DNA of 64,000 nucleotides from IMG/VR virus record IMGVR_UViG_3300009169_000014, positions 44,741 to 108,740 of that record; one strand, 5' to 3'. How positions within the stretch are numbered: the stretch's first letter is position 1; every line of letters starts with the position of its first letter. The position numbers were made by a program, and so were the translations under genes. The stretch is from a virus (Duplodnaviria; Heunggongvirae; Uroviricota; Caudoviricetes). A model generated the notes under the pieces. That model was given only the letters and a program-made list of their open reading frames with translations. It ran no database searches and was not told the origin of the DNA. Positions 2,038 through 17,213 of this stretch are shown here, piece after piece.

Positions 2038-2038
2038 G

Positions 2039-2851: not shown

Positions 2852-2860
2852 GGCTATATC

Positions 2861-3556: not shown

Positions 3557-6210
3557 TACCCTTGGTAGGCGCTCGTGTCATTCTGGTCCCGGAGGATCAG
3601 AGTGTTTTGGTTGATCTTCAGAATCAGGTCACCCATACCACGGAAGGTCGAGCGAAGGTTGTCCTCGAGCGAAATGTACGCATCATCACCGATGTCACCC
3701 TTGATGCGAACCTCGTCCATCCAGAGGGTGAGCAGCACGCGGCCAAGGTTATCGAGTGACTTCTCGAGGTTCGGCAGATAACCCGCGACCATCTCCTTGA
3801 GTGATGGCGTCTGCGCCATCGACGACAGCGCCGCCGCGTCGAAAGTGCCTGCGTCGTTAAGCTGTCCCGCCTGCTCGATGAACTGCGGGTTCACCTGCTG
3901 CTGCATGGTGTCAACGGACCCGTCGTCCGACGCCATCATTGCCTGAGGCGGTTGCTGCTGCGCCTGAGCGTTGGGGTCCTGCCCCTGCTGAGCGGCGGCG
4001 TTCGGGTCCATTCCCGGCTGCGCTTGCTGCATCTGGGCGTTGGGATCCATGCCCGGCTGCGGCTGCCCCTGCGCCATCTGGGCGTTGGGATCCATGCCCG
4101 GCTGCGGCTGGCCGCCCATCCCTTGCACCGGAGCACCCGCCCCCATCATCGACGGGTCCATGGGACCGCCCATTGCGGCAGCCGCGGCAGCCGGAGCAGC
4201 GCCGGCTCCGCCGCCACTGGCGATCATGCTTGCCCGCTGCTGGATGGTCTGCACCATCTGCTGCATCTGCGTCAGCGCCTGCATCTGGCTCTGGATGCTC
4301 TGCATCTGCTCGGCGACCGCCATGTCGACGGGCGACGGACCTTGCGGCTGCTGCATCTGCGCCTGCTGCATTTGCATCATCGCCTGCTCGGCGGGATCCG
4401 GCTGCTCGGGCTGTTTCTCGGCGGCGACACTAAGCCGCGCCGCCACCTTCTCAAGCCCTGCGGGCTCGATGATCCAGAAGGAGTAGGCCCCCTGCTCCGC
4501 AGCCGTCTTCAGCGCGAACTCTGCGTCCTCGATGGTGATGACGGCTTCGGTGGCCAGCTTGCGCAGAGCCGAAACGAAGTTCGGCGTGTACTCGCCGCCG
4601 ACGTTGAAGCCGTTCTCCCCGGTGTACTTCGACACCTTCACCTTCTCGGCGCCCTCAGACAACATGGCGTCGGTGGTCCAGTTGAAGATGTCCTTCGGAG
4701 TGGTCAGGAAGTCCTTCTTGGTGAGCTCGTTCTTGGCCGGGAACCATACGAAGTTGCTCGGCATGTAGACTACGTCGCTGTTCGACGGAACCATCAGCTT
4801 GCTGCCGGGATGCTGCGCATCCGTTACCAAGGTCTTCTTGCCCCAGGCGCCCACCACCTCAATACGTCGACCCCCTTCGAAATCAGAGGTGATCGATTCG
4901 ATGGTGACAGGCGCTGTCGCGATGAAAGAAGCGCCGCGGCGCTGAACGAAGATACCCCTCTGGCCTTTGCGAGGGCCAGCAGCCGACGCCTCGCCAACGG
5001 TCTTCTTGAAGACCTCGGACCCTTCGAGTTGGCTCATCGCCACCTCTGTACCCAAGAGGTCAGTTGAGTCGATCAGGTCCCCGTCCTCGGTGACGCCGAC
5101 GTAGCGGTCGATGTGAAACTCATCTCGGCGACCGGTTTCACCAGGCACGCGGTAACGCTGGTTGTACCCGTCCAACTCGTTAGCGGGACCCGCCGACTGA
5201 TTGATGAATCGGATGTTCCGCGCCGGGATCCGCTTACCGGAGGGATCGCCAAACATGTTGATCGGATTTGCGATGACCAGCGCCACGACGGGCTTGCCAT
5301 CCTTCTTCCAGAGCTTGTAGGCCCCGGCGTTCTTGGGCTCCTTCAGGTCCAGGTACGGCTGAACCGCCAGGGCACGGTTGACCTTTTTACGGTCGTCCTT
5401 GGCGTAGTAGCCCTTCACCTTCACGCCCTGGAACGCCGCGGGAGACTGCGAGCCGAAGATGTCCTTGAACTCCGTCGAGGTAGTCTTGTCGTCGGCGACG
5501 TAAAGCGCGCCACCGTGGTTCTTGATGCCTCCGCCGTAGTCGGCGAGCTTCAGCGCGTCGACGAGCGGCTTCTCGCCGTAGAACCACACCGCCTGCTTCA
5601 GCATGGTGGGGCGTGTCTCCAGCATCTTCGCCGCTGCCTTCTTGATACGGTTCGGAGCCTTCGAGAGAAAGTCGAGGAACGCGAGCTTGGGCTCCGTTTG
5701 GCTGCGCGCTTCGTCGAAGACGCGTCCGGCCTGCTTAACGGCGCTCGACGTGTCTGAAGCGTAGCTGTACCGGCCCGTGGTGGGCGGCACGACCGTGTTT
5801 CGAATGTCGACGTCCGTCGGCATGGTCTTGGGCGGCGTGACGCCTTTCCCCATTTCTCCGAGAGACTGCTTGTCGAGCTCCTCGAGCCACTCCTTGCTCA
5901 AGGGCATGAAGGCGTTCAGATCCTTGAAGTAGAGAATGTCGAGCGGCTTGATTTGGTTGTCCGCCATCACGACCGGGACGTAGAGCGTCTGTCCGCGTCG
6001 GATGATGACGAAGGCGCCAACACCAGAACCCTCTTCGTGGTCTGTCTCCAGAACCTTGAAGGTGACGACGTCCGGCGCCACGTTGGGCAGCTTGCTCAGC
6101 AGAACATTGTAGGCCATCTGCGAGAGGCCCTGGTCGAACATGGCTTTCGCCTGATCGCTGGTCCCACCCATCTGTCCCATCGCTTGCGTCCGAGGCGAAA
6201 TTGCGGGCAT
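3556..6210 (-). CDS. Large virion-type protein (884 aa) with Q/P/M-rich low-complexity segment and triple coding tandem repeat
   Basis: Long minus-strand ORF with a globular N-terminal 600 aa. This is followed by QMQQ-rich low complexity and three copies of PQPGMDPNAQM(A/Q)QGQ, encoded by a direct nucleotide repeat at about 3960-4110. No enzymatic motif was seen. Confidence 0.6.
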   Translation of the reverse strand: MPAISPRTQAMGQMGGTSDQAKAMFDQGLSQMAYNVLLSKLPNVAPDVVTFKVLETDHEEGSGVGAFVIIRRGQTLYVPVVMADNQIKPLDILYFKDLNAFMPLSKEWLEELDKQSLGEMGKGVTPPKTMPTDVDIRNTVVPPTTGRYSYASDTSSAVKQAGRVFDEARSQTEPKLAFLDFLSKAPNRIKKAAAKMLETRPTMLKQAVWFYGEKPLVDALKLADYGGGIKNHGGALYVADDKTTSTEFKDIFGSQSPAAFQGVKVKGYYAKDDRKKVNRALAVQPYLDLKEPKNAGAYKLWKKDGKPVVALVIANPINMFGDPSGKRIPARNIRFINQSAGPANELDGYNQRYRVPGETGRRDEFHIDRYVGVTEDGDLIDSTDLLGTEVAMSQLEGSEVFKKTVGEASAAGPRKGQRGIFVQRRGASFIATAPVTIESITSDFEGGRRIEVVGAWGKKTLVTDAQHPGSKLMVPSNSDVVYMPSNFVWFPAKNELTKKDFLTTPKDIFNWTTDAMLSEGAEKVKVSKYTGENGFNVGGEYTPNFVSALRKLATEAVITIEDAEFALKTAAEQGAYSFWIIEPAGLEKVAARLSVAAEKQPEQPDPAEQAMMQMQQAQMQQPQGPSPVDMAVAEQMQSIQSQMQALTQMQQMVQTIQQRASMIASGGGAGAAPAAAAAAMGGPMDPSMMGAGAPVQGMGGQPQPGMDPNAQMAQGQPQPGMDPNAQMQQAQPGMDPNAAAQQGQDPNAQAQQQPPQAMMASDDGSVDTMQQQVNPQFIEQAGQLNDAGTFDAAALSSMAQTPSLKEMVAGYLPNLEKSLDNLGRVLLTLWMDEVRIKGDIGDDAYISLEDNLRSTFRGMGDLILKINQNTLILRDQNDTSAYQG

Positions 6211-6318
6211 GTAATTCTCCTACCGCGTGCGGTATACCACGTAAAGCGAAACGGCCGTCAGGTCCAAGTATAGGACCCAACGGCCGTTTTTGGGCCCTCT
6301 CGTTGGGGAGCCGAGGCC

Positions 6319-7677
6319 TTAGCTCGCCGAGGCTGAAGACGACGCGGCGATTTCACGGATCCGGCCGAGGAGAGCACTCTCCTTCTTCTGCTCGCCTCCA
6401 ACTTCGTCCTTGTGCTCCGGATCCTTCTTGTACTTGTCGTGCTTCGAGGCCTTCGACTCATCCGCGCCCGCGGTCTTGTGCAGGCCCGTCAAGTACTCCT
6501 GGCGCCCGTCGTGATCGAAGCCGATCATCCGGGTGATGTGTGCGACCTTCTCGTCGTCGCTCATCTTGGGAAGATACGGCCCCACGTCTTCCGCGGTCTT
6601 CTTGAAAAGAACCAGAAAGGCATCCTCTTCAGAGGTCTTCGACGCCTGGATAACCGAGTTGGTGCCCGAGGGGCTGTTCTTCGGCCCGTTGGGATGCGGC
6701 TCCTCGTGGCCGATGCGGTGGGTCTGCGGCTCAGAGAAGTTCGCGTTGCCCATGCCGACCAGGTACTTCCCCTGAGGACGGTTCTTGTTGTCCAGCTGCG
6801 CGAGGGTGTCGACCTTCGCAGCGTCGGTGAGCTTGTTCTTGTCCGTGCCGTCGTGCAGGCCGACCAGCTTGTTGGCGATCTTCTTCAGTTGCTCATCCAG
6901 GCCCGCGGCTTTGGACGCATCGCTGCTCACCGAATTAGTGCCCGACGGAGAGTTCGCGGGACCGCTGGGGTGATTGCTCAGGTCACCCAGGTGACCCTTC
7001 ATGGTCTCGAGCTCAGTCTTGCCGACACCGTGGTGGTACGCACCCTCGGGGCGCTGCTTCTTGTCGAGCGCGGCGACCTCGCCGTGCGTCGCAGCCTGCG
7101 ACGCGTCGTTGCCCTTGTCGCCGCCCTGAATCAGCGCGCCGCCTGCAGCGGCCTTCACCTCGTAGGCCGCTTTCTCCATGCACTCGACCGCGATGGCCTG
7201 TGCCAGCGACTCGTAGTCCGCCTCGGCGGCGGTCTTGGTCAGATCCATGGCAGCCTTGGCCGCCTCGGGCGACGGGGGCGGACCCTCGGGAGCCGCGCCC
7301 TCGTGTTCCATGCCCGGCGGCATTCCACCAGCGCCGGGAGCGGATGCGCCTGCCTGCTCCATCAGAGCGTGCGCGATCTCCATGAGCTTGTTCGCCACGG
7401 CGGCGAGCTCCTCAGGGGAGTGGCCGCCCTCGGGCGACATCTCCGGCATTCCTCCGGCCGCGGGAGAATCGGCGACTGCGTCAGCCGCTTCGTCCATCGC
7501 TTCCTTGGTCGGGAACGCGACAACACCCCGGCGAACGAGTTCGTGTGCTACTCCACGTGCTGCGGCGCGCTTGAAAAGGCCCATGAAAGTTTGCTCCTTC
7601 TTACGTTGGCCGGAGTGTAGGCCAGGGGTTGTGGTTTTACAATTGAGAATGTCGGCCAGCGCCGGTACCCCCAACAT
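6319..7677 (-). CDS. Hypothetical protein (452 aa) with internal duplicated HP(S/N)GP(A/K)NSPSGTNSV module
   Basis: Minus-strand ORF. Two copies of a roughly 35-aa module are present (…HPSGPANSPSGTNSVSSDASKAAG… and …HPNGPKNSPSGTNSVIQASKTSEED…). It also has a Gly/Pro/Ala-rich middle section. Confidence 0.5.
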   Translation of the reverse strand: MLGVPALADILNCKTTTPGLHSGQRKKEQTFMGLFKRAAARGVAHELVRRGVVAFPTKEAMDEAADAVADSPAAGGMPEMSPEGGHSPEELAAVANKLMEIAHALMEQAGASAPGAGGMPPGMEHEGAAPEGPPPSPEAAKAAMDLTKTAAEADYESLAQAIAVECMEKAAYEVKAAAGGALIQGGDKGNDASQAATHGEVAALDKKQRPEGAYHHGVGKTELETMKGHLGDLSNHPSGPANSPSGTNSVSSDASKAAGLDEQLKKIANKLVGLHDGTDKNKLTDAAKVDTLAQLDNKNRPQGKYLVGMGNANFSEPQTHRIGHEEPHPNGPKNSPSGTNSVIQASKTSEEDAFLVLFKKTAEDVGPYLPKMSDDEKVAHITRMIGFDHDGRQEYLTGLHKTAGADESKASKHDKYKKDPEHKDEVGGEQKKESALLGRIREIAASSSASAS

Positions 7678-7685
7678 AGGAAAAG

Positions 7686-8135
7686 TCAGCCATCATGCAC
7701 AACATCAGAACTACGTGGAGAATCAAACGCCTTTCCAACGGCGTGTCCTACTGGCGCCAAGAACATACCGCCTCCGATTTGTCCGAAGGCTCCTAGCGGA
7801 GTTCCTAGCAAAGCTCCAGTCGTGCGCCCAAGGAAATCTCCCGTGAGCTCGCCGGCCCCAATGTCCGGATTCGCTCGAGACGCCAAGAGTGCCCCCATCA
7901 GGGGCCACGCCAAGGTAGCCGCGAGCTGCCCCGGTGACTTCGGGAGAACCTGTCCTAGAAGTCCTTTGCGCGGATGAAAGAGCTGTCCCTTCTGAAACTG
8001 CTGCCAAGCTTTCTCTGGCTGCCCGATCCCCTGGCGCTTGACCTCTTCGAGGTAGTCATCCCAACTTCCAGCGACCTTCACCCCAAAGGCGGAGAGAGCG
8101 GCACGGGCACCCGCAGTTTGTGACAGACCCCGCAT
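7686..8135 (-). CDS. Hypothetical protein (149 aa)
   Basis: Minus-strand ORF immediately upstream in coordinates of the beta-prime C-terminal gene. Its start overlaps at 8135. Confidence 0.45.
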   Translation of the reverse strand: MRGLSQTAGARAALSAFGVKVAGSWDDYLEEVKRQGIGQPEKAWQQFQKGQLFHPRKGLLGQVLPKSPGQLAATLAWPLMGALLASRANPDIGAGELTGDFLGRTTGALLGTPLGAFGQIGGGMFLAPVGHAVGKAFDSPRSSDVVHDG

Positions 8136-9934
8136 TAGTATTTGCCTTCCGGTCCCATCCCGAATTCAGAACCGTAAGCGTAGGCCGGTACCGGGTGAGT
8201 GCTATGGCGATCTGACACTGCGCCGGTACGAGCTCCCTGAAGAAGACTGTCCTTCAAGAAGCGATGAGCCAGACGGGCCATCCAGTCCGGGTGGAGCAGC
8301 GGGTTTCGCGCCATCGGCCGCATCATGAACTCGACGCGCGGAAGTGAAGAGGCCACACCAACACTGGTGACCCCGTGGGTCTTGAGGGTGTTGAGGATCG
8401 AAGGAGTAAGAGGCGTACCCGCGGTGTAGTGGAGGACCTCTTTACCCAGTACGCCGCCCACGGCGTGAGCGAGTAGCGTATCCCGACTGCCCTTCTCCGC
8501 GGCGTTCCGATACGCCTCGTAGGGGACTACTTCTCCTTTGAGGAGCTCCGGATGCTCATCTGTGTGCTCGAGAACTTTGACGTGGTTGAGGTCTGCGCGG
8601 GCGACCAATTCAAAGTGCCGCTTGTCGACGTTGACGCCTTCCCGCCCATAGATGTCATGAAGTGCGTCCACGAGGTACTGTCGTCCAACGCCAAAACCTT
8701 TGTGGTGGATGAGCTCATCTGGTTTGGGGATTCCTTCTGAGAGTACATCACCAGCTTCCACTTTCTGATGGACACGCACAAGCGGCTTCAAATTCGGCCC
8801 AACGTAGTGCTGTACCTCATTGACGTAGATATGCGTACCGCCATGGGGCGCGGGTACGATCTTCGTAACGACCCCGGTACGCTCTGCCAGCGCCGCCTTA
8901 TTGATGAAGTTCTGCGGCACCTCGAGAAGCTGCCGAACCCCCGGCATTCCAGTGAGCTGAGAAGAAGACCCCTTGATGCTCTTCCCGCCGTGCTTGGCGC
9001 TCAACGCCATCTGGGTCAAAGGCTCAGAGATCGACTGCGCGGCACGGACACCGACATTGATGCCGATTGCGTGCGGACGTCCTCGCTCATCAAGACCTTG
9101 ACACTTGCGGCAGAGGCCTGGCGTGGCCTTACACGTCATCGGCGAGCGGACATAGACCGTCTTCACTTTGTTGCGGAGGCCCGACGCAACTGCCTTCGTC
9201 ACCAAGTCGTTCCGGCGGTAACCCGCCTGATCTCTGGAGAGGTACCTATCAATGATGTTCCCATCAGTGCTGGCGAGCGCTATACCGTTCGGTGTTCCAC
9301 AGTCGTCGGCGGTAACGACCATTGGATACATCGAGTTTGTCATGATCTTGAGCATGTCGCCAGGCTCAGAGATAGAGATGGCCGCCTGCACGGTGTTGTG
9401 CCGCACATCGTTTCCAGCGGCCCAGTAGTCCGCGGAGTGGAGCCCCTCTGAATAGGAGCGGTCAACTATCCAGGGCATCGCCCGCCCTTGGCTAGACGTC
9501 ACTGTGACCGGAGAGGATACGGTCTTGGCCAGCTGCTCCATGTTGCCGCGAGCTCCTGACATCGCCATCGCGGTCATCGTGCCTGGGTGCAGCTTGGTCT
9601 GCGCCAGCATCTTCACTTTTGCGTCGAGAAGAACCTTCTCCTTTGCCGCTGAAGTAGTGGCACTTTTCAGAGCCGCGGTCGTCGCCGTGATGAGCGCATT
9701 ACGCTCTTTGTACTGCGGCGTGATGTCATCGATGCCGACGGAGACCCCTTCGAGCGTGGAGATGTCATCCCCGAGACGCTTCAGGCTGCTGACGATCTCA
9801 ACGTAGGCAGAAGGGTCCTCTCGAGCGAGGTCCAGCAGCTTCTGCGTGAGCTCTTTCTTCCCCAGCGCCCCCGTCGTGTGGAGATGCTTGGGCAGCAGGT
9901 CGTTGACCAGGTATTTCCCAAGCGTCTGCGCCAT
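8135..9934 (-). CDS. DNA-directed RNA polymerase beta-prime subunit, C-terminal portion (regions F-H: bridge helix and trigger loop)
   Basis: Matches to conserved beta-prime blocks: MAMSGARGNMEQL (SGARGS..QirQL block); TADDCGTPNGI (DDCGT block); CRKCQGLDERGRPHAIGINVGVRAAQSISEPLTQMALSAKHGGKS (CxxCYG…[25 protein letters not shown] block). Confidence 0.8.
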   Translation of the reverse strand: MAQTLGKYLVNDLLPKHLHTTGALGKKELTQKLLDLAREDPSAYVEIVSSLKRLGDDISTLEGVSVGIDDITPQYKERNALITATTAALKSATTSAAKEKVLLDAKVKMLAQTKLHPGTMTAMAMSGARGNMEQLAKTVSSPVTVTSSQGRAMPWIVDRSYSEGLHSADYWAAGNDVRHNTVQAAISISEPGDMLKIMTNSMYPMVVTADDCGTPNGIALASTDGNIIDRYLSRDQAGYRRNDLVTKAVASGLRNKVKTVYVRSPMTCKATPGLCRKCQGLDERGRPHAIGINVGVRAAQSISEPLTQMALSAKHGGKSIKGSSSQLTGMPGVRQLLEVPQNFINKAALAERTGVVTKIVPAPHGGTHIYVNEVQHYVGPNLKPLVRVHQKVEAGDVLSEGIPKPDELIHHKGFGVGRQYLVDALHDIYGREGVNVDKRHFELVARADLNHVKVLEHTDEHPELLKGEVVPYEAYRNAAEKGSRDTLLAHAVGGVLGKEVLHYTAGTPLTPSILNTLKTHGVTSVGVASSLPRVEFMMRPMARNPLLHPDWMARLAHRFLKDSLLQGARTGAVSDRHSTHPVPAYAYGSEFGMGPEGKY

Positions 9935-9940
9935 GGAGCC

Positions 9941-10483
9941 TCAGTACTGATTGTTCTGGTTGCCAGAACTGGAGAAGGCATTCATCATCAGGGGGAGACC
10001 TGCCGACATGGCGAGCATCGGCGCCTGCTGCATCGCCGCCTGCCCCAATGAGTGGCCGAACGTTTTCCCTTCTTCGCCCTTCACACCCCCCATGAAGTTC
10101 TGGAAGAAGCCAGCGGGCTTTCCACCAGCAGCAGGAGCGCCAGCAGCAGGAGCGCCAGCAGCAGGAGCGCCAGCAGCAGGAGCGCCAGCAGCAGGAGCGC
10201 CAGCAGCAGGAGCACCGGCGCCAGCAGCGGGAGCAGCGACAGGCGCCGTAGGCTGCGGCTTCTTAGTCACGCCGGGACCCACCTGCTGCGGAAGCATGGG
10301 ACCGGGAGCGGCGGAGTTCGACGGCCCCTTGACCGGAGCGGCGGCGCCCATAACCGGCGCAGAGTTCGTCTGGGCTGCGACCCGCGGACCGCGGAACACC
10401 TGCGTGGGCATTGGCGCTGCCCCTTTGAAGAAGACACCCCACGCAGCGCGATACCCCTCATTGTACGCAGCTTCCTTGATCAT
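9941..10483 (-). CDS. Hypothetical protein (about 180 aa) with (PAAGA)n Ala-Gly-Pro repeat
   Basis: The track ORF 9941..10543 has an Arg-rich N-terminal artefact. The ATG at 10483 (MIKEAAYNEGYRAAW…) overlaps the upstream stop in an ATGA arrangement. A 15-bp unit gcaggagcgccagca is repeated about 6 times at 10121-10215. Confidence 0.5.
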   Translation of the reverse strand: MIKEAAYNEGYRAAWGVFFKGAAPMPTQVFRGPRVAAQTNSAPVMGAAAPVKGPSNSAAPGPMLPQQVGPGVTKKPQPTAPVAAPAAGAGAPAAGAPAAGAPAAGAPAAGAPAAGAPAAGGKPAGFFQNFMGGVKGEEGKTFGHSLGQAAMQQAPMLAMSAGLPLMMNAFSSSGNQNNQY

Positions 10484-10770
10484 ATTGCGGCTCCATCGCG
10501 GCCAATGCCGGAGTAATCGTGCGAAGAAGCGCCGACGCCCCAAGGAGACGTCGGGTTGCCCCAGCGCGTTGGGTTGCCGAACCGCTTGTGTCCCTCATCC
10601 TTCGACGGGACGACCTGGCTGTCCAGATTCGAAAGGGTCTTAGCGAGACGCTCCGCCGACACGTTCATGTCGCCGTGAGGAAGAGCGCGTTGAAAGGCAT
10701 CACCTGCGGTACGAAGACCGAAGTCCTCTTCCGCACGGGCCTTCCCTTCCTCGTAGGCGAGATTCATCAT
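10480..10770 (-). CDS. Small hypothetical protein (96 aa). Its N-terminus resembles that of the downstream 180-aa protein
   Basis: MMNLAYEEGKARAEEDFGL… compared with MIKEAAYNEGYRAAWGVFF… suggests a tandem paralogous start. The gene sits between the RNAP parts. Confidence 0.4.
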   Translation of the reverse strand: MMNLAYEEGKARAEEDFGLRTAGDAFQRALPHGDMNVSAERLAKTLSNLDSQVVPSKDEGHKRFGNPTRWGNPTSPWGVGASSHDYSGIGRDGAAI

Positions 10771-10926
10771 CGTGGGAGCGTAGGTGACTTGGCAGCGTTG
10801 GACAACCGAGCAGGGGCCTTCGACTGCTCTTTCCAGCCCACCAGCGCCTCGCGTCGTTTCACAGCGTCCTTCAACTTCTGCGCAAGTTCTTCCGCGGCCA
10901 GCTGCTGTCCTTCTTCGAACGCCTGC

Positions 10927-11535
10927 TTAAGGAATTGCTCCACCGCCGCCTCCTTCGCAGAACATCATGCGACGCAGATCGTCTGCATGCTGCTGGTCGG
11001 TGAAGACCATCTGTTCGAGCATGACCTTGAGCGACAGATTCTCCCCCGCCATGAGGGAGAGGTTTCGCAGCTCCTGGATGATCTGCTTCTCCGCCTGGAG
11101 CAGGACCATGAACATCTGGTGCAAGTCGTTGATGTCGGGGATGGTGCTCACCTTCGGAGTGGGCTCACCGCCCAACGCCGTGATCTTCATCGTCAGGTGG
11201 TAGGCGTCCTGACGCTCTTCGTCGGCGTGCTCTTTGAAGTGGTCGTAGATGACATCCCGGAAGTGCGCCCGGATCCGGTCACCGTAGTTGATGTACATCA
11301 TCATCATCGTGTACTTGAGCTTGAGCAGCTTCACGCACTGGCCGACGACCTTCTCCTGAGGAACTGCGAACAGCCCCTCCTCGGGAGACACCGCCAGCGG
11401 GTGAACGCCCTCCGAAGCGGTTGGCTGGGGGAGAGGAACAACAGCGCCAGCGGCTTCGGTGGCTTGGGCGTCAGGGGACTGCACCTGCTCTGGAGGCACC
11501 TCGATGCCGTCAACTGCGATCTTGTAACGAGACAT
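10927..11535 (-). CDS. Dps/ferritin-like protein with N-terminal extension (202 aa)
   Basis: …RIRAHFRDVIYDHFKEHADEERQDAYHLTMKITALGGEP… fits the Dps helix pair (lH..fee…iD.lAERi..LGG.P). Its start overlaps the RNAP stop at 11535. Confidence 0.5.
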   Translation of the reverse strand: MSRYKIAVDGIEVPPEQVQSPDAQATEAAGAVVPLPQPTASEGVHPLAVSPEEGLFAVPQEKVVGQCVKLLKLKYTMMMMYINYGDRIRAHFRDVIYDHFKEHADEERQDAYHLTMKITALGGEPTPKVSTIPDINDLHQMFMVLLQAEKQIIQELRNLSLMAGENLSLKVMLEQMVFTDQQHADDLRRMMFCEGGGGGAIP

Positions 11536-14500
11536 CAGCCCACCTCAACTTTGGTATGCAGCCCGATTTCGCCGCGCTTGTACGCGGCCATGGCATCGGC
11601 TTTGGTTTTGAACTTGTGCGTCTGCCCGTTTACGGACCCTTCGGCTTTCGTAGCCAGGTGCACGCCTAGCATAGCTTCCATGCGGGGAGCGACCATCAGG
11701 CTGTTTTGCTCGCGGTCCGAAAAGAGCAGGTTGGAGAGGGTCATTCCCTTCACCTCCGCGACGGCGGCGGGAAGAATAGGGACGTGGATCTGGAACGTGT
11801 CACCGTCGTAGTCCGCGTTCATGCCCTGTTCGATGAACGGATTCACACGGATGGTTTTGCCTGCGACGGGGACAGGGTTGGCTCCGACGAAGCCGTAACG
11901 GTGGAGCGTCGGCGCGCGGTTCACCATCACTGGACGTTCTTTGAGCTCCGCCATCATGGCGTCTCGAGCTGCCGGGTGCTTCTCGTCCAGCATCTCCTTG
12001 GCGCGAACAGCGTTGAAGCCTCGACGGATCAAGCGCCCGATGATGAACTTCCCGTACATGCCCCAGAGCATGTCTTCGGGGAGACCGATTTCGTCCATGC
12101 CCAGCGAACCGTCGGGGGCGATGGTTCCGCGGCCAGAGATGTCCTGCTGACGCTTCATGATCTTTTTCTGGAAAAAGCTGCTCTTGGGCGTCGTCTTGCC
12201 GGTGAGGTGCTCGAGCAGGCCCTTCACATTTCGCTTCTGGAGCTTGGGGTTGTCGGACTCGTGCGTGCCGACCGCAGCACCGACGGCGAGGAACAAGTTC
12301 TGGCGCAACTTGGAATGCTCATCAGGCGGGAGCACCGGCTTGTCGACCTGTGTCTGGAGGGACCGATTGTGCAGCATGAGGCTCTGATAGAGGTAGTTGG
12401 AGTCTCCGACCACGAGCTCTGAACCACTCTTCCCCGCGAGTATGGGCCGCATGATGGGCGGGAGAACAGGCATCTTCGACAACACGTAGGCATCACCAGG
12501 TCGGAGGTTCTGCTTGTCGAGGGCCTCGAGGAACTTGAGCTGCTTCACGGCGTCATCGAGCTTCACCCCGTTCAGACTCTTGATGGACGCCCGAACCTCT
12601 TTCAAGCGGGCCTTTACGTCGATCCCGTTGAGACGCTGCTTCAGCGCTGACCCTCCTGACTGGAATCGGTAAGCATCAAAGTCCTTTGATGCCATACCAA
12701 GCAGACGACGAGCTGGTTCAGCGAAAATGGGATTCACCATCGGCTCCGCGAGCTCAATGTGGCTCCACCGCGTCCCGTCGGGACCACCGGTAACAGCGGG
12801 GTCGAACAAGCCCCCGCGTTCCGGAGCCAGGTCCTTCGCACGGACCAGTTTCTCATTCTGCACGGCGCCGGCGGACATTCGCGTGATGTCGTTGTCCGTC
12901 AGCGGCATGAGCGTGCTGAGGCTTCCTCGAGTGTCCACCTTCACCCCAGCGCCGTGAAGCATGCCAATGAACTTGTCGTAGGCGAACGACGCCTTCAAAG
13001 GCGGGAGAGGCAAGCCCAGCTGTACGGCCTTCCAGAACTCATCATTCTTCTGGCTCTTGATCGACGCTGTCTCTTTCAACACGTTGCGAGCGTTATGCGC
13101 CACCAGCGCGTTGAACTCCATCTTGCCGACGGCCTTGGCGCCTTCGTCCCCGCCTTTGATGGGCTGCTGGTTGACGTCGTAGGCCCCGGTCCCACGAGCA
13201 GCGAAGTTGGTCTCTGTCGTCTTGAACAAGCGCAGCACGTACTGCGGTCCGACGAGGATGTTGGGAATCTTCTTCCCCGACACCGGGTCGAACAACGTCT
13301 CCTTGTCCTTGACTCCGTGCTCCTTCATCAGGTCCTTGGTCCACTGTACGTTGTCGCGACCGGAGAAGTTGGCAACGGCGATGGGCTTCCCCATCTTCTT
13401 AGCGACCTTGGCGACGCAGGTCTCAAGGATCTGCGCGGGGTTGATACGAGAGACGACGCCCGCCGAGGTATAGAGAACGTCGAGCGGCTTCCCCGCTTCG
13501 TCCTGGAGCATCTTGTGGTTCGGTACGATCAGGGACACGACGCCCTTATTCCCGTGACGCCCCGTGAGCTTGTCCCCGACGCGCATCGGTTCCTTGGTCC
13601 TGACAGTGACGACGACGCGCCTGTCGGTCACGTGGACGTCCATGACCTCACCCTCGAAGTCATGGTCCCAGGTCCGAACGAGCTCGCGATAGGGGTGAAC
13701 CAGTGTCTTCTTCAGATTCGACAAAAGCATGTCGGACGCGGAGAGTTTTCCACGCGTCACGCCCGCGATGAGCAGGTCGTGAGGCATCACCTTCGTGCCC
13801 TTGCGAACTACGCCGTTGGTGTCGAGCTTGCGATACTGGTCCGCCATGTACTTGGGCCCGTAGTACTGCCGATGAATCTCGCGCCCCAGAGTTGCATCGC
13901 GCTCAACCTCGAGGACCTCCTTGTACATGTGCTCGGAGGTGAGCTTGTCCGCGGCCCCTTCCGAGATGACGACGGCGTCGTTCGAGTTCATGCCGTAGTA
14001 GGGCACGTACCCGATGGTCATGTTCCGCCCCAGAGCAAAGGCACCGTCACGAGTGAAGTTCGAATCAGCTAGGCGCTGGTTCGCGTCAACGTGGTCGCCA
14101 GGCTTCACGAGTAGGTCGTGGTGAAGGTATGTCTTCGAAGCGAAGGGGAAGTTGTCCTCGTACGGGATGCGGAGGAGGTCCTTCTCCGCCGCCGCCTTCT
14201 CTCGACCGCGCTCTGAGAGGTAGTCGTCCTTGAACTCGTCCCAGGTGTACTCGGTCAACGAACCGTAGCCCCAGGGTGGACCGTGCTTCTCGTAGGCGTC
14301 CTTCGCGGCGTCCTTGGAGTCGAAGCCCACCATGCACTTGTCTTCGTCGTGCGAGCCGTCCTTCTTCCGCTGATGCACGATGTAGACGTTGTCGAACGTG
14401 CCCTCTTCCTTCAGGTAGATGTCGACGGTTTCGCCATCATCGCCAACGGTCTTGGGGATGTGGCCGTACGCCACGTACATCTTCTTCTCCCACTTTTCGC

Positions 14501-16346
14501 CCTTGTCGTTCGTCCCCGTGCGTACATCACCAGGCTCGAGCTCGATCTTCATGAGCAGGCCGTTGATGGTCTTCTGTCGTTTGACGGCGCCGCCACGCTT
14601 CTCGAACGAATTCTTCTCAATCCCAAAGTCTTCTGCGTGCTTCTTCCCAGTAGGGTCGATGTAGATGTACTGCCCGTCGACCTTCACAACCTTGCCTGCG
14701 ACGGGAGACGACGGGAGCTCCAGCATCGCGAGTGCCTTCTCCCAACTCGAGAAGACCTTGCCCGTCGCATCAGCGACACCCGACTGCACTAGGGGTGCTT
14801 CTCGGTGCACGAGCGGGAGCGCCTGCGTCATCGACTTGCCTCCCATGATGCCGCGGTTCCCCTGCACGGACTCCAAAAAGGGAACGAGGTTCGTGGCGGG
14901 AGAGTACAAGTCTGAAGCATCACTGATCTCGTGCGTAACCTCCGACCATGGAACGCGCTCCATCTTCCCGTACTTCATGACCGCGACGACCCCAAAGTGC
15001 TTCTGCCTCGGGAAGGCGACGACTGCCCGACTCATCCGCGCTGCGGACAGAAGCTCCGACTTACCGGTCTTGACGTCCCGCACCATGGAGTACAGGTTCC
15101 CCTTGGGGTCCCGGTGCGCGAACATCGAAGTACGGATGTCGATACCGGCGCGGAACGTCTCGGACGTTCGCACAGGATCAAGGATACCAAGGTGGCTCGA
15201 GTGAATCGCCCGAGCCTCGCCAGGGATTGCACGCTCGTTGGCGATGCCACCCTCGCCCAAGGAGGTCACCCGCACCGCGTGGTCAATGGCCTCCATCGGG
15301 TTGATGTGCGTTGGGATCGAGCTCAGCTGCGATCCTGTGAGGAAGCTTCGAATGCCCGCGGAAAAAGGAGAAGGCGGAAGAATGGTCCGGAGTTCCGTCT
15401 TGTGCGTGGCCCTCCCCTTCACCTTACTGGCGAGCGCCCGAGCATCCAGGGTGATGCGCTCTTTGATGAAGTCGTCGACCGAGTGGTACGTCTTGAACCG
15501 TAGAGCGTCTCGGTCGTCAGTGTCCTCGTTGTTCTTGTAGACGCTGAGGAGGCGCTTCGACGCCACCAAGAGAGACTGCGGAGTGACGCTGGAGAACTCG
15601 TGGCCCAGTGTCTCCTTGGTAACCTCAGGGTCCATCGCCGTAGCGGCGTAGGCTGTCCTGATGGCAGCGAGCTGCGACTCCGGGTCCTTTGCCATCCGCT
15701 TCGAAGGGTGCACCAGCTTCTCGTAGAGCTTCGACAGATTCTTGTCGTGCTTCCCTTCAAACGCAGACTCATTCTGCTTCGCAACGTCGGAGCCCCAGTG
15801 CGAAGAAATGTCCGTGTGTGGTACTCCCAGCTTCCGGAGTACTGAGTAAAGTGGAATGGACGTCGTGCCGTACTCGATGTACGGATGCCCCTGCGTCGGA
15901 TCCATCGACAGCCGGAAGTTGGACCCCTTCGACAAGTTGAAGGCGGCCTCCAGATCTTCGTTGCCGCGGCGACGGGTGTATACGCCCGGCTTCAGACGGA
16001 GTTGGTTAGAGACGTTGTACTCGTTGCCGTCCAAGATGAAGGTGTGCCGCCCCGTGAAGTAGGGCAGGTTAAGCAGAGTGAAGTTCTTTACCCGCTCGAG
16101 CTCCTTCCCGTCGGCCCCCCGGAGGATGACCGTCCCCTTCACAGGCTCAAAAAGAGACCCACCGCTGAGCAAAGCGCTCTTCTGATCGTGCGGACCGAAG
16201 TCCCTCTCGTGCACCTTGAGATCAACGACCTCGATTTTCTTGTCCCGAAGTGGAAGGGGAAAAGCTGTACGCAGCGCATCAAGCGCTTTCGAGCGGATTT
16301 GAATCCGCCGCGACTCGGGGTCGGTCATCACAGGCGTGAGCTGCAT
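11535..16346 (-). CDS. DNA-directed RNA polymerase, fused beta subunit plus beta-prime N-terminal portion (through the catalytic NADFDGD region)
   Basis: Beta motifs: MRVGDKLTGRHGNKGVVS (GDK…GRHGNKGV) and KAVGKMEFNALVAHNARNVLKE (GGQRFGEMEVWALEAYGAA). Beta-prime N-terminal motifs: WSHIELAEPMVNP (GHIELA.PV), VLPPIMRPIL…LYQSLMLHNRSL, and NADYDGD at 11797-11817, followed by 87 aa to the stop. The track ORF extends to 17171, but the first 275 aa are Arg-rich junk. The real start is proposed at the ATG at 16346 (MQLTPVMTDPESRRIQIRSK…). Confidence 0.85.
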   Translation of the reverse strand: MQLTPVMTDPESRRIQIRSKALDALRTAFPLPLRDKKIEVVDLKVHERDFGPHDQKSALLSGGSLFEPVKGTVILRGADGKELERVKNFTLLNLPYFTGRHTFILDGNEYNVSNQLRLKPGVYTRRRGNEDLEAAFNLSKGSNFRLSMDPTQGHPYIEYGTTSIPLYSVLRKLGVPHTDISSHWGSDVAKQNESAFEGKHDKNLSKLYEKLVHPSKRMAKDPESQLAAIRTAYAATAMDPEVTKETLGHEFSSVTPQSLLVASKRLLSVYKNNEDTDDRDALRFKTYHSVDDFIKERITLDARALASKVKGRATHKTELRTILPPSPFSAGIRSFLTGSQLSSIPTHINPMEAIDHAVRVTSLGEGGIANERAIPGEARAIHSSHLGILDPVRTSETFRAGIDIRTSMFAHRDPKGNLYSMVRDVKTGKSELLSAARMSRAVVAFPRQKHFGVVAVMKYGKMERVPWSEVTHEISDASDLYSPATNLVPFLESVQGNRGIMGGKSMTQALPLVHREAPLVQSGVADATGKVFSSWEKALAMLELPSSPVAGKVVKVDGQYIYIDPTGKKHAEDFGIEKNSFEKRGGAVKRQKTINGLLMKIELEPGDVRTGTNDKGEKWEKKMYVAYGHIPKTVGDDGETVDIYLKEEGTFDNVYIVHQRKKDGSHDEDKCMVGFDSKDAAKDAYEKHGPPWGYGSLTEYTWDEFKDDYLSERGREKAAAEKDLLRIPYEDNFPFASKTYLHHDLLVKPGDHVDANQRLADSNFTRDGAFALGRNMTIGYVPYYGMNSNDAVVISEGAADKLTSEHMYKEVLEVERDATLGREIHRQYYGPKYMADQYRKLDTNGVVRKGTKVMPHDLLIAGVTRGKLSASDMLLSNLKKTLVHPYRELVRTWDHDFEGEVMDVHVTDRRVVVTVRTKEPMRVGDKLTGRHGNKGVVSLIVPNHKMLQDEAGKPLDVLYTSAGVVSRINPAQILETCVAKVAKKMGKPIAVANFSGRDNVQWTKDLMKEHGVKDKETLFDPVSGKKIPNILVGPQYVLRLFKTTETNFAARGTGAYDVNQQPIKGGDEGAKAVGKMEFNALVAHNARNVLKETASIKSQKNDEFWKAVQLGLPLPPLKASFAYDKFIGMLHGAGVKVDTRGSLSTLMPLTDNDITRMSAGAVQNEKLVRAKDLAPERGGLFDPAVTGGPDGTRWSHIELAEPMVNPIFAEPARRLLGMASKDFDAYRFQSGGSALKQRLNGIDVKARLKEVRASIKSLNGVKLDDAVKQLKFLEALDKQNLRPGDAYVLSKMPVLPPIMRPILAGKSGSELVVGDSNYLYQSLMLHNRSLQTQVDKPVLPPDEHSKLRQNLFLAVGAAVGTHESDNPKLQKRNVKGLLEHLTGKTTPKSSFFQKKIMKRQQDISGRGTIAPDGSLGMDEIGLPEDMLWGMYGKFIIGRLIRRGFNAVRAKEMLDEKHPAARDAMMAELKERPVMVNRAPTLHRYGFVGANPVPVAGKTIRVNPFIEQGMNADYDGDTFQIHVPILPAAVAEVKGMTLSNLLFSDREQNSLMVAPRMEAMLGVHLATKAEGSVNGQTHKFKTKADAMAAYKRGEIGLHTKVEVG

Positions 16347-16430: not shown

Positions 16431-17213
16431 ATGGCCAACAAAGTAGCGGGGAAGACGAAGAAAAAGAAGGTCGTAAAACGAGCGGCGCCTCCGATCCACA
16501 AGGAGGAGGCATCGTTCCTCATCGACGTCCGAGAGATTCCACCGGACAAAATCCTCCGCGCTTCGCTCGTCTGTGAAGTTGACGACCGAAAACGGTGGGA
16601 TGCGATGAGCGAGGGGATGGTGGCGAACCAGTTGCCGAGGATCGCCCGCATCGCAGCCACGCTGACCAACACCAAGGCGCGTTGCCACTTCTGCAACAAG
16701 CCGCAGGAACCGCTCTCCAAGGAGCGGATGTTTCATTTCAGCAGCGACTACAAGTTGTGCGAGTGCTTGATGGTTCTTCGCAAGCGCCCGTACGAGTACA
16801 TCCCGGGGTGGAGTCATCCTGAGAAGCTGAAGCAAATTCTCAGTCAAGTGGAAACCGGCGAGCTGCTTCCAGTGGCGCCGGTCTACCAAATCGTATGCCA
16901 CTGCGGAGAAGGCCCTGTCGTTGTTAACGCGGGACTGATCGCACAGAGCGTACTGAAGTTCGGAGCGCACGCGCGAAAGAGGCAATGTGATCGGTGCCAC
17001 TTGAAACACATGCGGGCGAAGGTCCGCCCCAATGCGCCGTTGCGTGCGCCCGTGTCGGAACTCATCGCTGTTCCTCAGGACGGGCCCGGTGGCAAGTTCA
17101 AGAGGAACCGCAAGAAGGGGCACCAGGGACCGCGGCAGGGGGCCGTGATCATCCCAGAGGGTAGCCTTCAACCTTTGACCGCGCTCGAGAAAGCGCCTGA
17201 GACACCTGCTTGA
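16431..17213 (+). CDS. Cys-rich (zinc-finger-like) basic protein, 260 aa
   Basis: A GAGGGGA Shine-Dalgarno lies 6 nt upstream of the ATG. The N-terminus is Lys-rich and there are multiple CxxC/CxC pairs (CHFCNK, CECLMVL, VCHCGEGP, RQCDRCHLKH). It is divergent from the RNAP gene. Confidence 0.5.
   Translation: MANKVAGKTKKKKVVKRAAPPIHKEEASFLIDVREIPPDKILRASLVCEVDDRKRWDAMSEGMVANQLPRIARIAATLTNTKARCHFCNKPQEPLSKERMFHFSSDYKLCECLMVLRKRPYEYIPGWSHPEKLKQILSQVETGELLPVAPVYQIVCHCGEGPVVVNAGLIAQSVLKFGAHARKRQCDRCHLKHMRAKVRPNAPLRAPVSELIAVPQDGPGGKFKRNRKKGHQGPRQGAVIIPEGSLQPLTALEKAPETPA

What the first reader, a model, noticed from the sequence alone, without database searches (positions are those of the whole stretch)
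10480..11535. Dps/ferritin-like gene and two small paralogous-start genes inserted between the two RNAP genes
The start of the 202-aa ORF overlaps the stop of the beta–beta-prime-N gene. Its core, …HFKEHADEERQDAYHLTMKITALGGEP…, looks like the Dps four-helix-bundle signature with an about 80-aa N-terminal extension. A DNA-protecting or iron-binding protein co-transcribed with a virion RNAP is unusual. It could serve to protect or condense injected DNA, or to shield the RNAP from oxidative damage. The following two genes share MxxxAYxEG N-termini and one has a (PAAGA)n repeat.
Basis: partly seen in the sequence, partly recalled or inferred. Interest (0 to 1): 0.55.

Follow-up and report, generated by a model that had tools for sequence, protein, structure and literature searches.

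The report
Remodelled ferritin-like gene inside phage RNA-polymerase operon
A large uncultivated phage carries, wedged between its two RNA-polymerase genes, a real ferritin-fold protein of the bacterioferritin/Dps-like type that has lost two of its six iron ligands. It is therefore probably not an iron-storing or DNA-coating Dps, but an accessory protein that travels with a pyrophosphatase-bearing polymerase.

Summary
The 202-aa ORF (10927-11535, minus strand) is real. Its ATG shares one base with the stop of the RNAP beta–beta'N gene. It is a ferritin-like four-helix bundle (Pfam PF00210, 42 bits against a 24.5 cut-off; AF2 core pLDDT above 90; TM 0.90 to PDB 2qqy).

It is not a canonical Dps. 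Its nearest relatives are the bacterioferritin-type "mini" proteins (2qqy, mini-bacterioferritin, DpsL).

At the six di-iron ligand positions the whole family reads K-E-x-E-D-H instead of E-E-H-E-E-H. The haem-binding Met is absent, and the protein and its N-terminal tail are acidic.

The gene is conserved in a metagenome-only clade of phages with contigs up to about 190 kb. In most loci examined it sits in one tightly overlapping operon: beta–beta'N, ferritin-like gene, small genes, beta'C.

That clade also has an inorganic-pyrophosphatase (InPase) domain inserted in beta. The nearest isolates, Salmonella phage Arash and Vibrio phage D69, lack both features. Elsewhere the same ferritin clade is fused to InPase, or forms the N-terminus of 500-1100-aa proteins; one examined example lies between the head and sheath genes.

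The small genes share an N-terminal AYxEG…FG helix motif. The (PAAGA)n gene lies outside the stated coordinates.

Verdict: a new variant of a known fold. Virion packaging and the functional link to the polymerase are inferred, not shown.

The parts
11535..16346 (-). RNAP beta–beta'N fusion gene, 1603 aa from the ATG at 16346. The mechanical ORF extends to 17171 from a TTG.
   Evidence: Pfam Rpb2_3, Rpb2_6, Rpb1_1 and Rpb1_2. Orthologues start at the equivalent ATG. 37% identity to Arash gp206 and D69 gene 0261.
14226..14585 (-). InPase (type I inorganic pyrophosphatase, PF18823) domain inserted in the beta part of the polymerase.
   Evidence: Pfam E=9e-32. Present in L001, L006, L007 and L051. 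Absent from Arash and D69, where the alignment has a gap over aa ~575-725.
10927..11535 (-). Ferritin-like gene, 202 aa. Its start overlaps the stop of beta–beta'N by 1 nt.
11422..11535 (-). aa 1-38: N-terminal tail that is variable in sequence and length, acidic, Ala/Pro-rich and predicted disordered.
   Evidence: Alignment A1. pLDDT about 50. Charge -3.5.
11350..11421 (-). aa 39-62: conserved pre-domain motif PTASEGVHPLAVSPEEGLFAVPQE. The EG-x-F-x-VP-x-E part is shared with the whole phage ferritin clade.
10951..11358 (-). aa 60-195: four-helix bundle. The ligand positions read K74, E107, D110 (variable in the family), E149, D180, H183. Y81, H99 and H103 are also conserved.
10767..10943 (-). 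58-aa gene (GTG start, MEQFLKQAFEEG…). Basic and predicted helical.
   Evidence: Orthologues in L001, L002 and L051 at 65-71% identity. No family hit.
10480..10770 (-). 96-aa gene (MMNLAYEEGKARAEEDFGLRTAG … DYSGIGRDGAAI).
   Evidence: 42 homologues, with the large contigs of up to about 190 kb typical of this clade. Found in L006 and L007 directly upstream of beta'C. AF2 gives an N-terminal helix 4-27 with the rest of low confidence.
9941..10483 (-). 180-aa gene (MIKEAAYNEG…). Ala/Pro-rich with (PAAGA)n and a hydrophobic Met/Gly-rich C-terminus.
   Evidence: Perfect 15-nt x 5.9 tandem repeat at 10125-10213.
8135..9934 (-). RNAP beta'C gene, 599 aa.
   Evidence: Pfam Rpb1_5 E=3e-20. 34-36% identity to Arash gp216 and D69 gene 0264.
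7686..8135 (-). 149-aa gene after beta'C. Its N-terminus (…GARAALSAFGVKVAG) carries the same helix motif, followed by Gly-zipper-like segments.

Best explanation
The ORF encodes a phage-specific member of the ferritin-like superfamily. It belongs to the bacterioferritin-type "mini" branch, whose solved members are 2qqy, mini-bacterioferritin and DpsL.

Its intrasubunit di-iron centre has been remodelled to K-E-x-E-D-H:
- The terminal Glu of helix A is an invariant Lys.
- The His of the helix-B ExxH motif is lost.
- The bridging Glu of helix D is shortened to Asp.

The likely result is that metal site A is abolished, with the Lys ammonium group taking its place against E107 and D180. At most one metal site remains (E107, E149, D180, H183). 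The protein is therefore probably not a ferroxidase, an iron store or a DNA-condensing Dps.

The gene is expressed from one overlapping operon with the two RNAP genes and three small helix-motif proteins. I infer that the protein is packaged in the head and delivered together with a virion RNAP that carries its own pyrophosphatase domain. In that reading it acts as a structural, oligomerising or single-metal accessory module of the injected transcription kit. Its relatives with an intact site would supply iron and peroxide detoxification.

Shown: the fold, the ligand pattern, the operon structure, conservation in the clade, the clade-level co-occurrence with the InPase insert, and the domain fusions.
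Inferred: virion packaging, metal stoichiometry, and any contact with the RNAP.
For: Fold:
- Pfam PF00210, 42 bits.
- PDB profile hits to 2qqy (1.5e-11), DpsL PA4880 (5e-8) and mini-bacterioferritin (1e-6).
- AF2 plus Foldseek gives TM 0.90 and rmsd 1.3 Å to 2qqy.

Ligand mapping:
- The mapping is the same against three solved relatives and E. coli Bfr.
- K74, E107, E149, D180 and H183 are invariant in 28 diverse homologues, and position 110 is variable.
- The ligand numbering comes from the mini-bacterioferritin paper (PMC13168243).
- Across 236 relatives there are two correlated states, EEHEEH and K-E-x-E-D-H. The variant may have arisen more than once, on a crude NJ tree only.

Operon:
- Stops and starts overlap or nearly abut from beta–beta'N to beta'C.
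- No convincing minus-strand terminator lies inside the block.

Synteny:
- The arrangement is kept in L001, L002/L003, L006, L007 and L051, at 39-88% ferritin identity.
- In L009 the gene stays next to beta'C even though beta–beta'N is not upstream.

Link to InPase:
- The insert and the ferritin gene occur together in this clade, and both are absent from Arash and D69.
- Four independent cluster representatives fuse Ferritin and InPase in one polypeptide.
- One of them, P0117, matches both window features.

Virion context:
- The Arash RNAP subunits, portal, gp210 and gp213 are detected in particles.
- The window block is collinear with that module.
- The one examined long relative (L020) lies between the major head and tail sheath genes.
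- A Ferritin–InPase fusion lies near a MuF-domain protein.
- InPase is described as a phage polyvalent-protein domain likely to be packaged (PMC5512222).
- Phage G gp346, a ferritin-like protein, was detected in particles (PMC12484599).

Precedent for the site change: class Ie RNR R2, also in the ferritin-like superfamily, is functional and metal-free after ligand substitutions that include Glu to Lys (PMC11846895).
Against: - There is no proteomic, biochemical or structural data for any member of this clade, and no isolate carries it.
- The Arash particle proteome lists 116 proteins, including obvious non-structural enzymes, and its authors caution about carry-over. "Virion RNAP" is therefore suggestive rather than proven.
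- Four of the six ligand positions remain acidic or His, so a mono- or even binuclear metal site with altered geometry cannot be excluded from sequence alone.
- The site between the two RNAP genes is an insertion hot-spot. Arash has about 4.7 kb of unrelated genes there and L002 has an HNH gene. Adjacency alone is therefore weak evidence of function.
- The model coordinates could not be inspected, so the proposed Lys74–E107/D180 contacts are not verified.
Confidence: 0.55

Rival explanations
1. The protein is a working Dps-like mini-ferritin that oxidises and sequesters iron and/or coats DNA, protecting the injected genome or the RNAP from oxidative damage.
For: - The fold is ferritin-like.
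- Relatives with an intact EEHEEH site exist in the same phage clade, so the ancestral activity was probably ferroxidase or peroxide detoxification.
- Phage G packages a ferritin-like protein.
- E107, E149, D180 and H183 are invariant and could still bind a metal.
Against: - An invariant Lys replaces a ligand Glu, the ExxH His is lost, and this holds in all 90 close homologues.
- The Dps-type inter-subunit ligands are not alignable, and the DpsA model scores 14 of 300 bits.
- The protein has pI 5.1 and an acidic tail, with no Lys-rich DNA-binding arm.
Confidence: 0.15
2. The gene is incidental cargo. A ferritin-like auxiliary gene or moron landed in the hot-spot at the beta' split site, is expressed in the infected cell (for example for metal or redox homeostasis), and has no functional tie to the polymerase or the virion.
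For: - The same inter-RNAP gap holds unrelated genes in Arash (9 ORFs, some on the opposite strand) and only two tiny ORFs in D69.
- An HNH-like gene is inserted after the ferritin gene in L002.
- Inteins or LAGLIDADG domains occur in the RNAP genes of L006 and L051.
Against: - The gene is kept with overlapping stop and start across homologues down to 39% identity.
- It stays linked to beta'C after rearrangement.
- Ferritin–InPase fusions recur, and the gene co-occurs with the InPase insert.
- The relatives examined sit in structural modules.
Confidence: 0.2
3. The protein is an integral non-catalytic RNAP subunit. A four-helix bundle serves as an assembly, bridging or specificity factor of the phage polymerase, analogous to the extra subunits of other phage multisubunit RNAPs.
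For: - The gene is translationally coupled to beta–beta'N.
- It is retained beside beta'C in L009.
- Catalytic ligands are lost while the surface and fold are conserved.
Against: - Arash and D69 have homologous polymerases without it.
- The same domain heads large proteins; in the one locus examined (L020) no RNAP gene was recognised among the ten ORFs scanned.
- No test of interaction was possible.
Confidence: 0.1

Closest known systems
B. anthracis SigB-operon ferritin-like di-iron protein (PDB 2qqy)
   Same: Best sequence and structure match: profile E=1.5e-11, TM 0.90, rmsd 1.3 Å over 134 columns, 23% identity. It is a bundle of about 140 aa.
   Different: 2qqy has Glu and His at the aligned helix-A Glu and helix-B, helix-C and helix-D ligand positions. 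The phage protein has K74, a variable residue at 110, and D180. It also has a 55-60-aa N-terminal extension and a phage operon context.
Dps-like proteins (DpsL: P. aeruginosa PA4880 8w1d/e, S. solfataricus 2clb) and mini-bacterioferritin (Ca. Methanoperedens 9qq4/5)
   Same: The subunit fold is the same, and the ligand positions lie inside the four-helix bundle as in bacterioferritin (PMC11150526, PMC13168243).
   Different: These are 12-mers with an intact E-E-H-E-E-H centre and demonstrated iron oxidation. Mini-bacterioferritin also has a strictly conserved haem-binding Met. The phage family has Arg/Gln at that position and lacks two ligands. Its oligomeric state is unknown.
Canonical Dps (E. 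coli Dps)
   Same: Ferritin-like four-helix bundle, small subunit, and the LGG-x-P motif after helix B.
   Different: The Dps ferroxidase site is formed between two subunits (His51, His63, Asp78, Glu82; from my own knowledge). No such alignment is obtained. There is no Lys-rich N-terminal arm, and no canonical Dps is recognisable among the 50 listed Foldseek hits.
Class Ie ribonucleotide reductase R2 (metal-free QSK and VPK variants)
   Same: It is a ferritin-like superfamily protein in which conserved metal-binding Glu residues were replaced, one of them by Lys, giving a functional metal-free site next to a conserved Tyr (PMC11846895). The phage family also keeps the site-adjacent Tyr (Y81).
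   Different: It is a different branch of the superfamily with no sequence relationship beyond the fold. No NrdI-like partner was recognised near the phage gene. This is an analogy only.
Phage polyvalent or virion-packaged proteins with InPase domains (Iyer et al. 2017), and phage G gp346
   Same: InPase is a marker of phage proteins predicted to be injected. Relatives of this ferritin domain are fused to InPase. Phage G's ferritin-like protein is found in particles.
   Different: Here the ferritin domain is a stand-alone gene and the InPase is embedded in RNAP beta. The 2017 survey does not mention ferritin at all (zero occurrences of the word).
Encapsulin ferritin-like cargo (Flp, EncFtn)
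   Same: A ferritin-like protein associated with an HK97-type shell system, with a disordered Pro/Ala-rich segment plus a short conserved motif flanking the fold.
   Different: No recognised cargo-loading peptide. The motif is N-terminal, and part of it belongs to the domain itself. Packaging is untested.

Membership tests
Ferritin-like superfamily (Pfam PF00210 Ferritin) | Score above the curated Pfam gathering threshold | tested here: met
   42.3 bits against a 24.5 cut-off, aa 69-189, profile positions 6-134 of 142. All 90 homologues carry PF00210.
Ferritin-like superfamily (Pfam PF00210 Ferritin) | Four-helix-bundle fold superimposable on solved ferritins | tested here: met
   AF2 gives four helices with core pLDDT above 90. 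Foldseek finds 81 PDB hits at E<=1e-3, with a best target TM of 0.90.
Bacterioferritin, mini-bacterioferritin and DpsL (intrasubunit di-iron ferroxidases) | Six ligands: Glu(A), ExxH(B), Glu(C), ExxH(D) | tested here: not met
   The aligned positions read K74, E107, D110 (variable: D/A/S/G/F/H), E149, D180, H183.
Bacterioferritin and mini-bacterioferritin | Haem-binding Met next to the helix-B Glu | tested here: not met
   Position 108 is Arg in the window and mostly Arg or Gln in the family. The Met is strictly conserved in mini-bacterioferritin (PMC13168243).
Dps sensu stricto | Inter-subunit ferroxidase ligands (two His on helix A, Asp and Glu on helix B of the partner subunit) | tested here: not met
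   hhalign of A1 against E. coli Dps aligns only 13 columns with probability 0.4%. NCBIfam DpsA scores 14.4 bits against a 300 cut-off. The ligand identities are from my own knowledge.
Dps sensu stricto | Basic (Lys-rich) N- or C-terminal arm for DNA binding, found in the DNA-binding members | tested here: not met
   The N-terminal 62 residues carry a net charge of about -7. The whole protein has pI 5.1.
Mini-ferritins (Dps, DpsL, mini-bacterioferritin) | Dodecameric cage | not testable with these tools
   Only single-chain prediction was available and no coordinates were returned.
Virion-packaged or polyvalent phage proteins | Presence in particles, or fusion to packaged-protein marker domains | tested here: inconclusive
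   The window protein itself is not fused. Relatives are fused to InPase or lie next to MuF, head and sheath genes. There is no proteome for this clade.
Encapsulin-type cargo | Terminal cargo-loading peptide and an adjacent shell gene | not tested
   No model of cargo-loading peptides was available. The C-terminus (…CEGGGGGAIP) is variable in the family.

The most novel reading that the evidence does not exclude
The K-E-x-E-D-H ferritin-like domain is a metal-free or single-metal module that large phages load into their capsids as dedicated cargo, together with a virion RNA polymerase that has its own built-in pyrophosphatase. That would make it a phage counterpart of encapsulin ferritin-like cargo. 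Its Lys and Tyr centre may carry out chemistry of its own, as in metal-free class Ie R2, rather than being a dead site. The same triple substitution possibly arising twice (on a crude tree) would argue for a selected alternative function.
Probability: 0.12. Interest if true: 0.8.

Novelty: new variant of a known kind. Interest (0 to 1): 0.5.

Why it matters
If it holds, three things follow.

1. It defines a sizeable ferritin-like clade that no phage family library covers. The profile finds 684 cluster representatives at E<=1e-3. Every contig that could be placed for the sampled members was a large viral or phage-like contig, and several of those genes lie in structural-gene neighbourhoods.

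2. It links that domain repeatedly to a pyrophosphatase domain, which here sits inside a multisubunit RNA polymerase. That suggests an injected transcription kit with more parts than polymerase subunits alone.

3. It gives ferritin biochemists a natural, strongly conserved K/x/D replacement of a di-iron centre to test.

It also bears on the proposed parallel between encapsulin cargo and proteins enclosed in phage procapsids. If instead the protein is a stray auxiliary gene, the finding reduces to an unusual location for a degenerate ferritin homologue.

Tried and rejected
Searches that found nothing or added little:
- tblastn of the window protein, and of a canonical relative's ferritin domain, against 50,697 phage records gave no match. 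No isolate is available for proteomic cross-reference.
- PHROGs gave no hit for the ferritin gene, the small genes, most neighbours or the long relatives.
- NCBIfam gave only a sub-threshold DpsA hit.
- The search for related loci with single long proteins returned nothing, or only DUF5661 or InPase pieces. An alignment query worked.
- The contigs carrying the Ferritin–InPase fusions P0117 and P0122 are too short to give context.
- The large neighbours of P0153 are not RNAP.
- hhalign of the family profile against single E. coli Dps and Bfr sequences was not significant for either. It was used only to check column correspondence.
- AF2 of the 96-aa protein had low confidence (pLDDT 58), so no fold search was run on it.
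- The afdb50 fold library was unavailable.

Ideas considered and set aside:
- A haem-binding bacterioferritin: there is no Met at the haem position.
- A Dps with a DNA-binding tail: the tail is acidic.
- The N-terminal ASE|G or PEE|G as a phiKZ-type prohead-protease site (that motif is recalled from memory): not testable here.
- A recurrent h-x-K-[TLV]-A-[GSAE] motif in neighbouring proteins, seen 11 times against 2.6 expected. It was found post hoc and is absent from the ferritin protein, so it is recorded only in passing.
- A chemical link between pyrophosphatase-derived phosphate and ferritin mineral cores: pure speculation, and it does not apply to a site-degenerate protein.
Full report
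**What is there.**
All genes of the region lie on the minus strand. In order they are:
- a 576-aa protein (17829-19559), which is 30% identical (E=2e-81) to the portal protein gp204 of Salmonella phage Arash;
- a 166-aa gene;
- a conserved 260-aa gene on the opposite strand (16431-17213);
- the RNAP beta–beta'N fusion (ATG at 16346, ends at 11535; Pfam Rpb2_3, Rpb2_6, Rpb1_1, Rpb1_2);
- the 202-aa ORF of the finding (10927-11535);
- three small genes of 58, 96 and 180 aa (10767-10943, 10480-10770, 9941-10483);
- RNAP beta'C (8135-9934; Rpb1_5);
- a 149-aa gene, followed by larger proteins. One of these (884 aa) matches the Arash structural protein gp218.

The 202-aa ORF starts with an ATG that shares its A with the TGA of beta–beta'N, and GAGGTGG lies 7 nt upstream. 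The following genes overlap or nearly abut, and no convincing minus-strand terminator lies inside the block. This looks like one transcription unit with translational coupling.

**The fold.**
- Pfam Ferritin (PF00210) matches aa 69-189 at 42.3 bits against a 24.5 cut-off.
- A direct search of PDB sequences finds 2qqy (7e-8), a 139-aa "bacterioferritin" (9qq4) and the DPS-like protein 8w1d.
- A profile of 28 homologues improves these to 1.5e-11, 1e-6 and 5e-8.
- AlphaFold2 with that alignment gives four helices (60-89, 94-120, 138-163, 167-195) with block pLDDT of 91-98, and a disordered N-terminus.
- Foldseek returns 2qqy (target TM 0.90, rmsd 1.3 Å), then mini-bacterioferritin, bacterioferritins, T. 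maritima ferritin and DpsL proteins. No canonical Dps is recognisable among the 50 listed hits.

**Which kind of ferritin.**
The profile-to-structure alignments place the family on the bacterioferritin-type intrasubunit centre. The ligand positions are Glu16, Glu49, His52, Glu91, Glu124 and His127 in mini-bacterioferritin (PMC13168243).

The aligned residues in the window protein are:
- K74 in place of the helix-A Glu;
- E107, retained;
- D110 in place of the helix-B His;
- E149, retained;
- D180 in place of the helix-D Glu;
- H183, retained.

The same correspondence appears against 2qqy, 8w1d, 9qq4 and E. coli Bfr. In 28 homologues spanning 39-88% identity, K74, E107, E149, D180 and H183 are invariant, and position 110 varies among D, A, S, G, F and H.

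Other features:
- The haem-ligand Met of bacterioferritins is Arg108 here.
- The Tyr that hydrogen-bonds the helix-A Glu (Y81) is kept.
- The protein is acidic (pI 5.1, net charge -10), including its tail.
- The E. coli Dps sequence aligns over only 13 columns.
- The NCBIfam DpsA model scores 14 bits against a 300 cut-off.

The protein is therefore neither a Dps in the strict sense nor a complete Bfr/DpsL ferroxidase.

**The substitution pattern is a family state, not decay.**
A profile search of 1.84 billion cluster representatives found 684 relatives at E<=1e-3 and 228 at E<=1e-10. I aligned all 236 retrieved proteins to the family HMM. The six positions fall into two correlated states:
- the canonical E-E-H-E-E-H, in 61 representatives;
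- K-E-x-E-D-H, in all members of the window's clade and in about 70 others.

A few exceptions exist.

In a crude neighbour-joining tree the K-type sequences form two groups. One contains the short stand-alone proteins, including the window's clade. The other is nested beside canonical long proteins of identical architecture. The minimum is three state changes. This hints that the triple change arose more than once, but it needs a proper phylogeny.

Losing Glu(A) and His(B) removes two ligands of one metal site. The remaining E107, E149, D180 and H183 could hold one metal. From charge and position, I infer that the Lys fills the vacated site and pairs with E107 and D180.

A documented precedent exists in the same superfamily. 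Class Ie RNR R2 replaced three metal-binding Glu residues, one of them by Lys, and works without metal (PMC11846895).

**Distribution and synteny.**
The 90 close homologues come only from metagenomes, on contigs of up to 190 kb. No phage isolate has the gene.

- In L001 (88% identity), L002/L003, L006 (39%), L007 (51%) and L051, the gene follows beta–beta'N directly and precedes beta'C. In L001, L006 and L007 the stop and start overlap; in L051 about 108 nt separate the called genes.
- In L009 (60%) it still sits upstream of beta'C, but beta–beta'N is not adjacent.

The closest isolates by RNAP similarity are Vibrio phages D69, D181 and D148 and Salmonella phage Arash (34-36% in beta'C). They have the same portal–RNAP–structural layout but no ferritin gene. 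D69 has two tiny ORFs in the gap, and Arash has about 4.7 kb of other genes. The gap is thus an insertion hot-spot. L002 carries an extra HNH-like gene there, and L006 and L051 carry intein or LAGLIDADG hits in the polymerase gene.

**The pyrophosphatase link.**
The window's beta–beta'N contains a PF18823 InPase domain (E=9e-32). It lies between the Rpb2_3 and Rpb2_6 regions. The insert is present in L001, L006, L007 and L051. It is absent from Arash and D69, whose alignments skip aa ~575-725. Among the loci examined, the insert and the ferritin gene therefore occur in the same clade.

Independently, four cluster representatives (P0117, P0122, P0153, P0156) carry Ferritin and InPase in one polypeptide. 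P0117 matches both window features: 36% identity (9e-22) to the insert and 31% (1e-15) to the ferritin gene. These fusions have the canonical site, and they share the family's N-cap (EG-x-F-A-V-P-x-E) and the RxxFRD motif.

InPase was described as a domain of phage polyvalent proteins that are probably packaged and injected, possibly to clear PPi for early transcription. That paper does not mention ferritin (PMC5512222).

**Virion context.**
- In Arash, particle mass spectrometry detected RNAP beta (the most spectra of any protein), beta', the portal, and gp210 and gp213, which are encoded between the RNAP genes. However, 116 proteins were listed, and the authors themselves note possible carry-over.
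- Most long relatives (500-1100 aa) have the ferritin domain at residues ~40-180, followed by Gly-zipper-like, Q-rich and Pro/Ala-rich regions. They occur on viral contigs, many of them 120-185 kb. In L020 the gene lies between a major head protein (phrog_2522) and a tail sheath (phrog_279).
- L020-type phages share at least one structural gene with the window, at 30-533 on the minus strand.
- A Ferritin–InPase fusion lies two genes from a MuF-domain protein.
- BFVD contains phage ferritin/Dps-like models, some within proteins annotated as prohead protease, and phage G gp346. gp346 was found in particles (PMC12484599).

Together these make packaging plausible, but they do not show it.

**The small genes.**
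- *96-aa protein.* It has 42 homologues, with contigs of up to about 190 kb as in this clade. Its N-terminus (AYxEGxxxAxxxFG) and C-terminus (DYSGIGRDGAAI) are invariant. Recognisable versions lie directly upstream of beta'C in L006 and L007. AF2 predicts an N-terminal helix and otherwise low confidence.
- *58-aa and 180-aa proteins.* They are conserved only among closer relatives. In L006 and L007 a transmembrane protein takes their place, with a Phage_holin_6_1 hit in L007.
- *Shared motif.* All three small proteins, and the 149-aa protein after beta'C, begin with a similar ~20-residue helix motif. Pairwise similarity beyond that is not significant.
- *The repeat.* (PAAGA)n is a perfect 15-nt x 5.9 repeat at 10125-10213. 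Orthologues have different Ala/Pro-rich linkers.

"Paralogous starts" is a fair description. The function of the motif is unknown; it could be targeting, binding or a propeptide.

**Interpretation and scores.**
- Identity as a ferritin-like protein is near certain.
- The conclusion that it is not a standard ferroxidase or DNA-binding Dps is well supported by residues and charge.
- The view that it is a packaged accessory of an InPase-bearing virion RNAP rests on conserved coupling, clade-level co-occurrence and domain fusions. I give the combined statement 0.55.

The rivals are:
- a functional Dps (0.15);
- an incidental auxiliary gene in a hot-spot (0.2);
- a true RNAP subunit (0.1).

The fold is known. 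The remodelled centre, the phage-restricted clade and the association with InPase and RNAP were not found in the literature I could search. I therefore rate it a new variant of a known kind, with interest 0.5.

Noticed in passing
window 14226-14585 (-), within the RNAP beta–beta'N gene 11535-16346: A type I inorganic pyrophosphatase domain (PF18823 InPase, E=9e-32) is inserted inside the beta part of a multisubunit RNA polymerase, between the Rpb2_3 and Rpb2_6 regions. It is present in the clade (L001, L006, L007, L051) and absent from the homologous polymerases of Arash and Vibrio phage D69. A polymerase with its own PPi-clearing domain may be more notable than the ferritin gene.
   Followed up: partly
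proteins P0091-P0236: Across the phage ferritin clade the six di-iron positions take only two correlated states, E-E-H-E-E-H or K-E-x-E-D-H. A crude NJ tree suggests that the K-type arose at least twice.
   Followed up: partly
L020 9962-11812; L024 9899-12166; L042 9977-12256; proteins P0123, P0128, P0143: Large proteins of 500-1100 aa start with a conserved leader (IPLxEAAxFFxGLKKxAEWTDPPDxTGxLEG) and the ferritin domain, then Gly-zipper-like, Q-rich coiled and Pro/Ala/Gly-rich regions. The three loci shown lie on 167-185 kb viral contigs; in L020 the gene sits between the major head and tail sheath genes. No PHROG family covers them.
   Followed up: partly
window 7686-8135, 9941-10483, 10480-10770, 10767-10943 (all -): Four small proteins flanking beta'C begin with a similar ~20-residue motif, (A)(Y/F)xxGxxxAxxxFG(h)(K/R)xAG. 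Several also have Gly- or Met-rich hydrophobic segments. In Arash, the Gly-zipper-like protein gp213 in the same gap is a particle protein by mass spectrometry.
   Followed up: partly
window 1186-7677 (-): proteins of 452, 884 and 270 aa, plus the 149-aa and 96-aa proteins: A short motif, h-x-K-[TLV]-A-[GSAE], occurs 11 times in the module's proteins against 2.6 expected from shuffles. Similar …EKTAS… strings occur near the N-termini of proteins in L020, L024 and L042. It could be a maturation-cleavage or binding motif. It was found post hoc.
   Followed up: partly
window 10125-10213: A perfect 15-nt tandem repeat of 5.9 copies encodes (PAAGA)n. Orthologues have different Ala/Pro-rich linkers, so the segment looks recently expanded and free to vary in length.
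   Followed up: yes
L002 8448-9074; L006 3681-10001; L051 1383-9893: Mobile elements target this module in relatives. An HNH-like endonuclease gene sits right after the ferritin gene in L002. Intein or LAGLIDADG hits enlarge the RNAP beta–beta'N gene to 2106 aa in L006 and 2836 aa in L051.
   Followed up: no
L007 10633-10974 and L006 10618-10998: In more distant relatives the 58-aa and 180-aa genes are replaced by a protein of 113-126 aa with an N-terminal transmembrane segment. The L007 version has a precomputed Phage_holin_6_1 hit. This puts a holin-like gene inside the polymerase operon.
   Followed up: no
window 16431-17213 (+): A conserved 260-aa Cys-rich gene lies on the opposite strand between the 166-aa gene and the RNAP gene. 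Counterparts lie at L001 4347-5078, L006 2827-3570 and L007 3872-4765. It leaves an ~85-bp divergent gap in front of the RNAP ATG at 16346. No family hit.
   Followed up: no
window 6319-7677 (-) and 3556-6210 (-): The 452-aa protein contains an internal duplication (…RP(E/Q)G.Y…HP(S/N)GP.NSPSGTNSV…). The 884-aa protein, which matches Arash structural protein gp218, has PGMDPNAQM-type repeats and a Q-rich segment.
   Followed up: no
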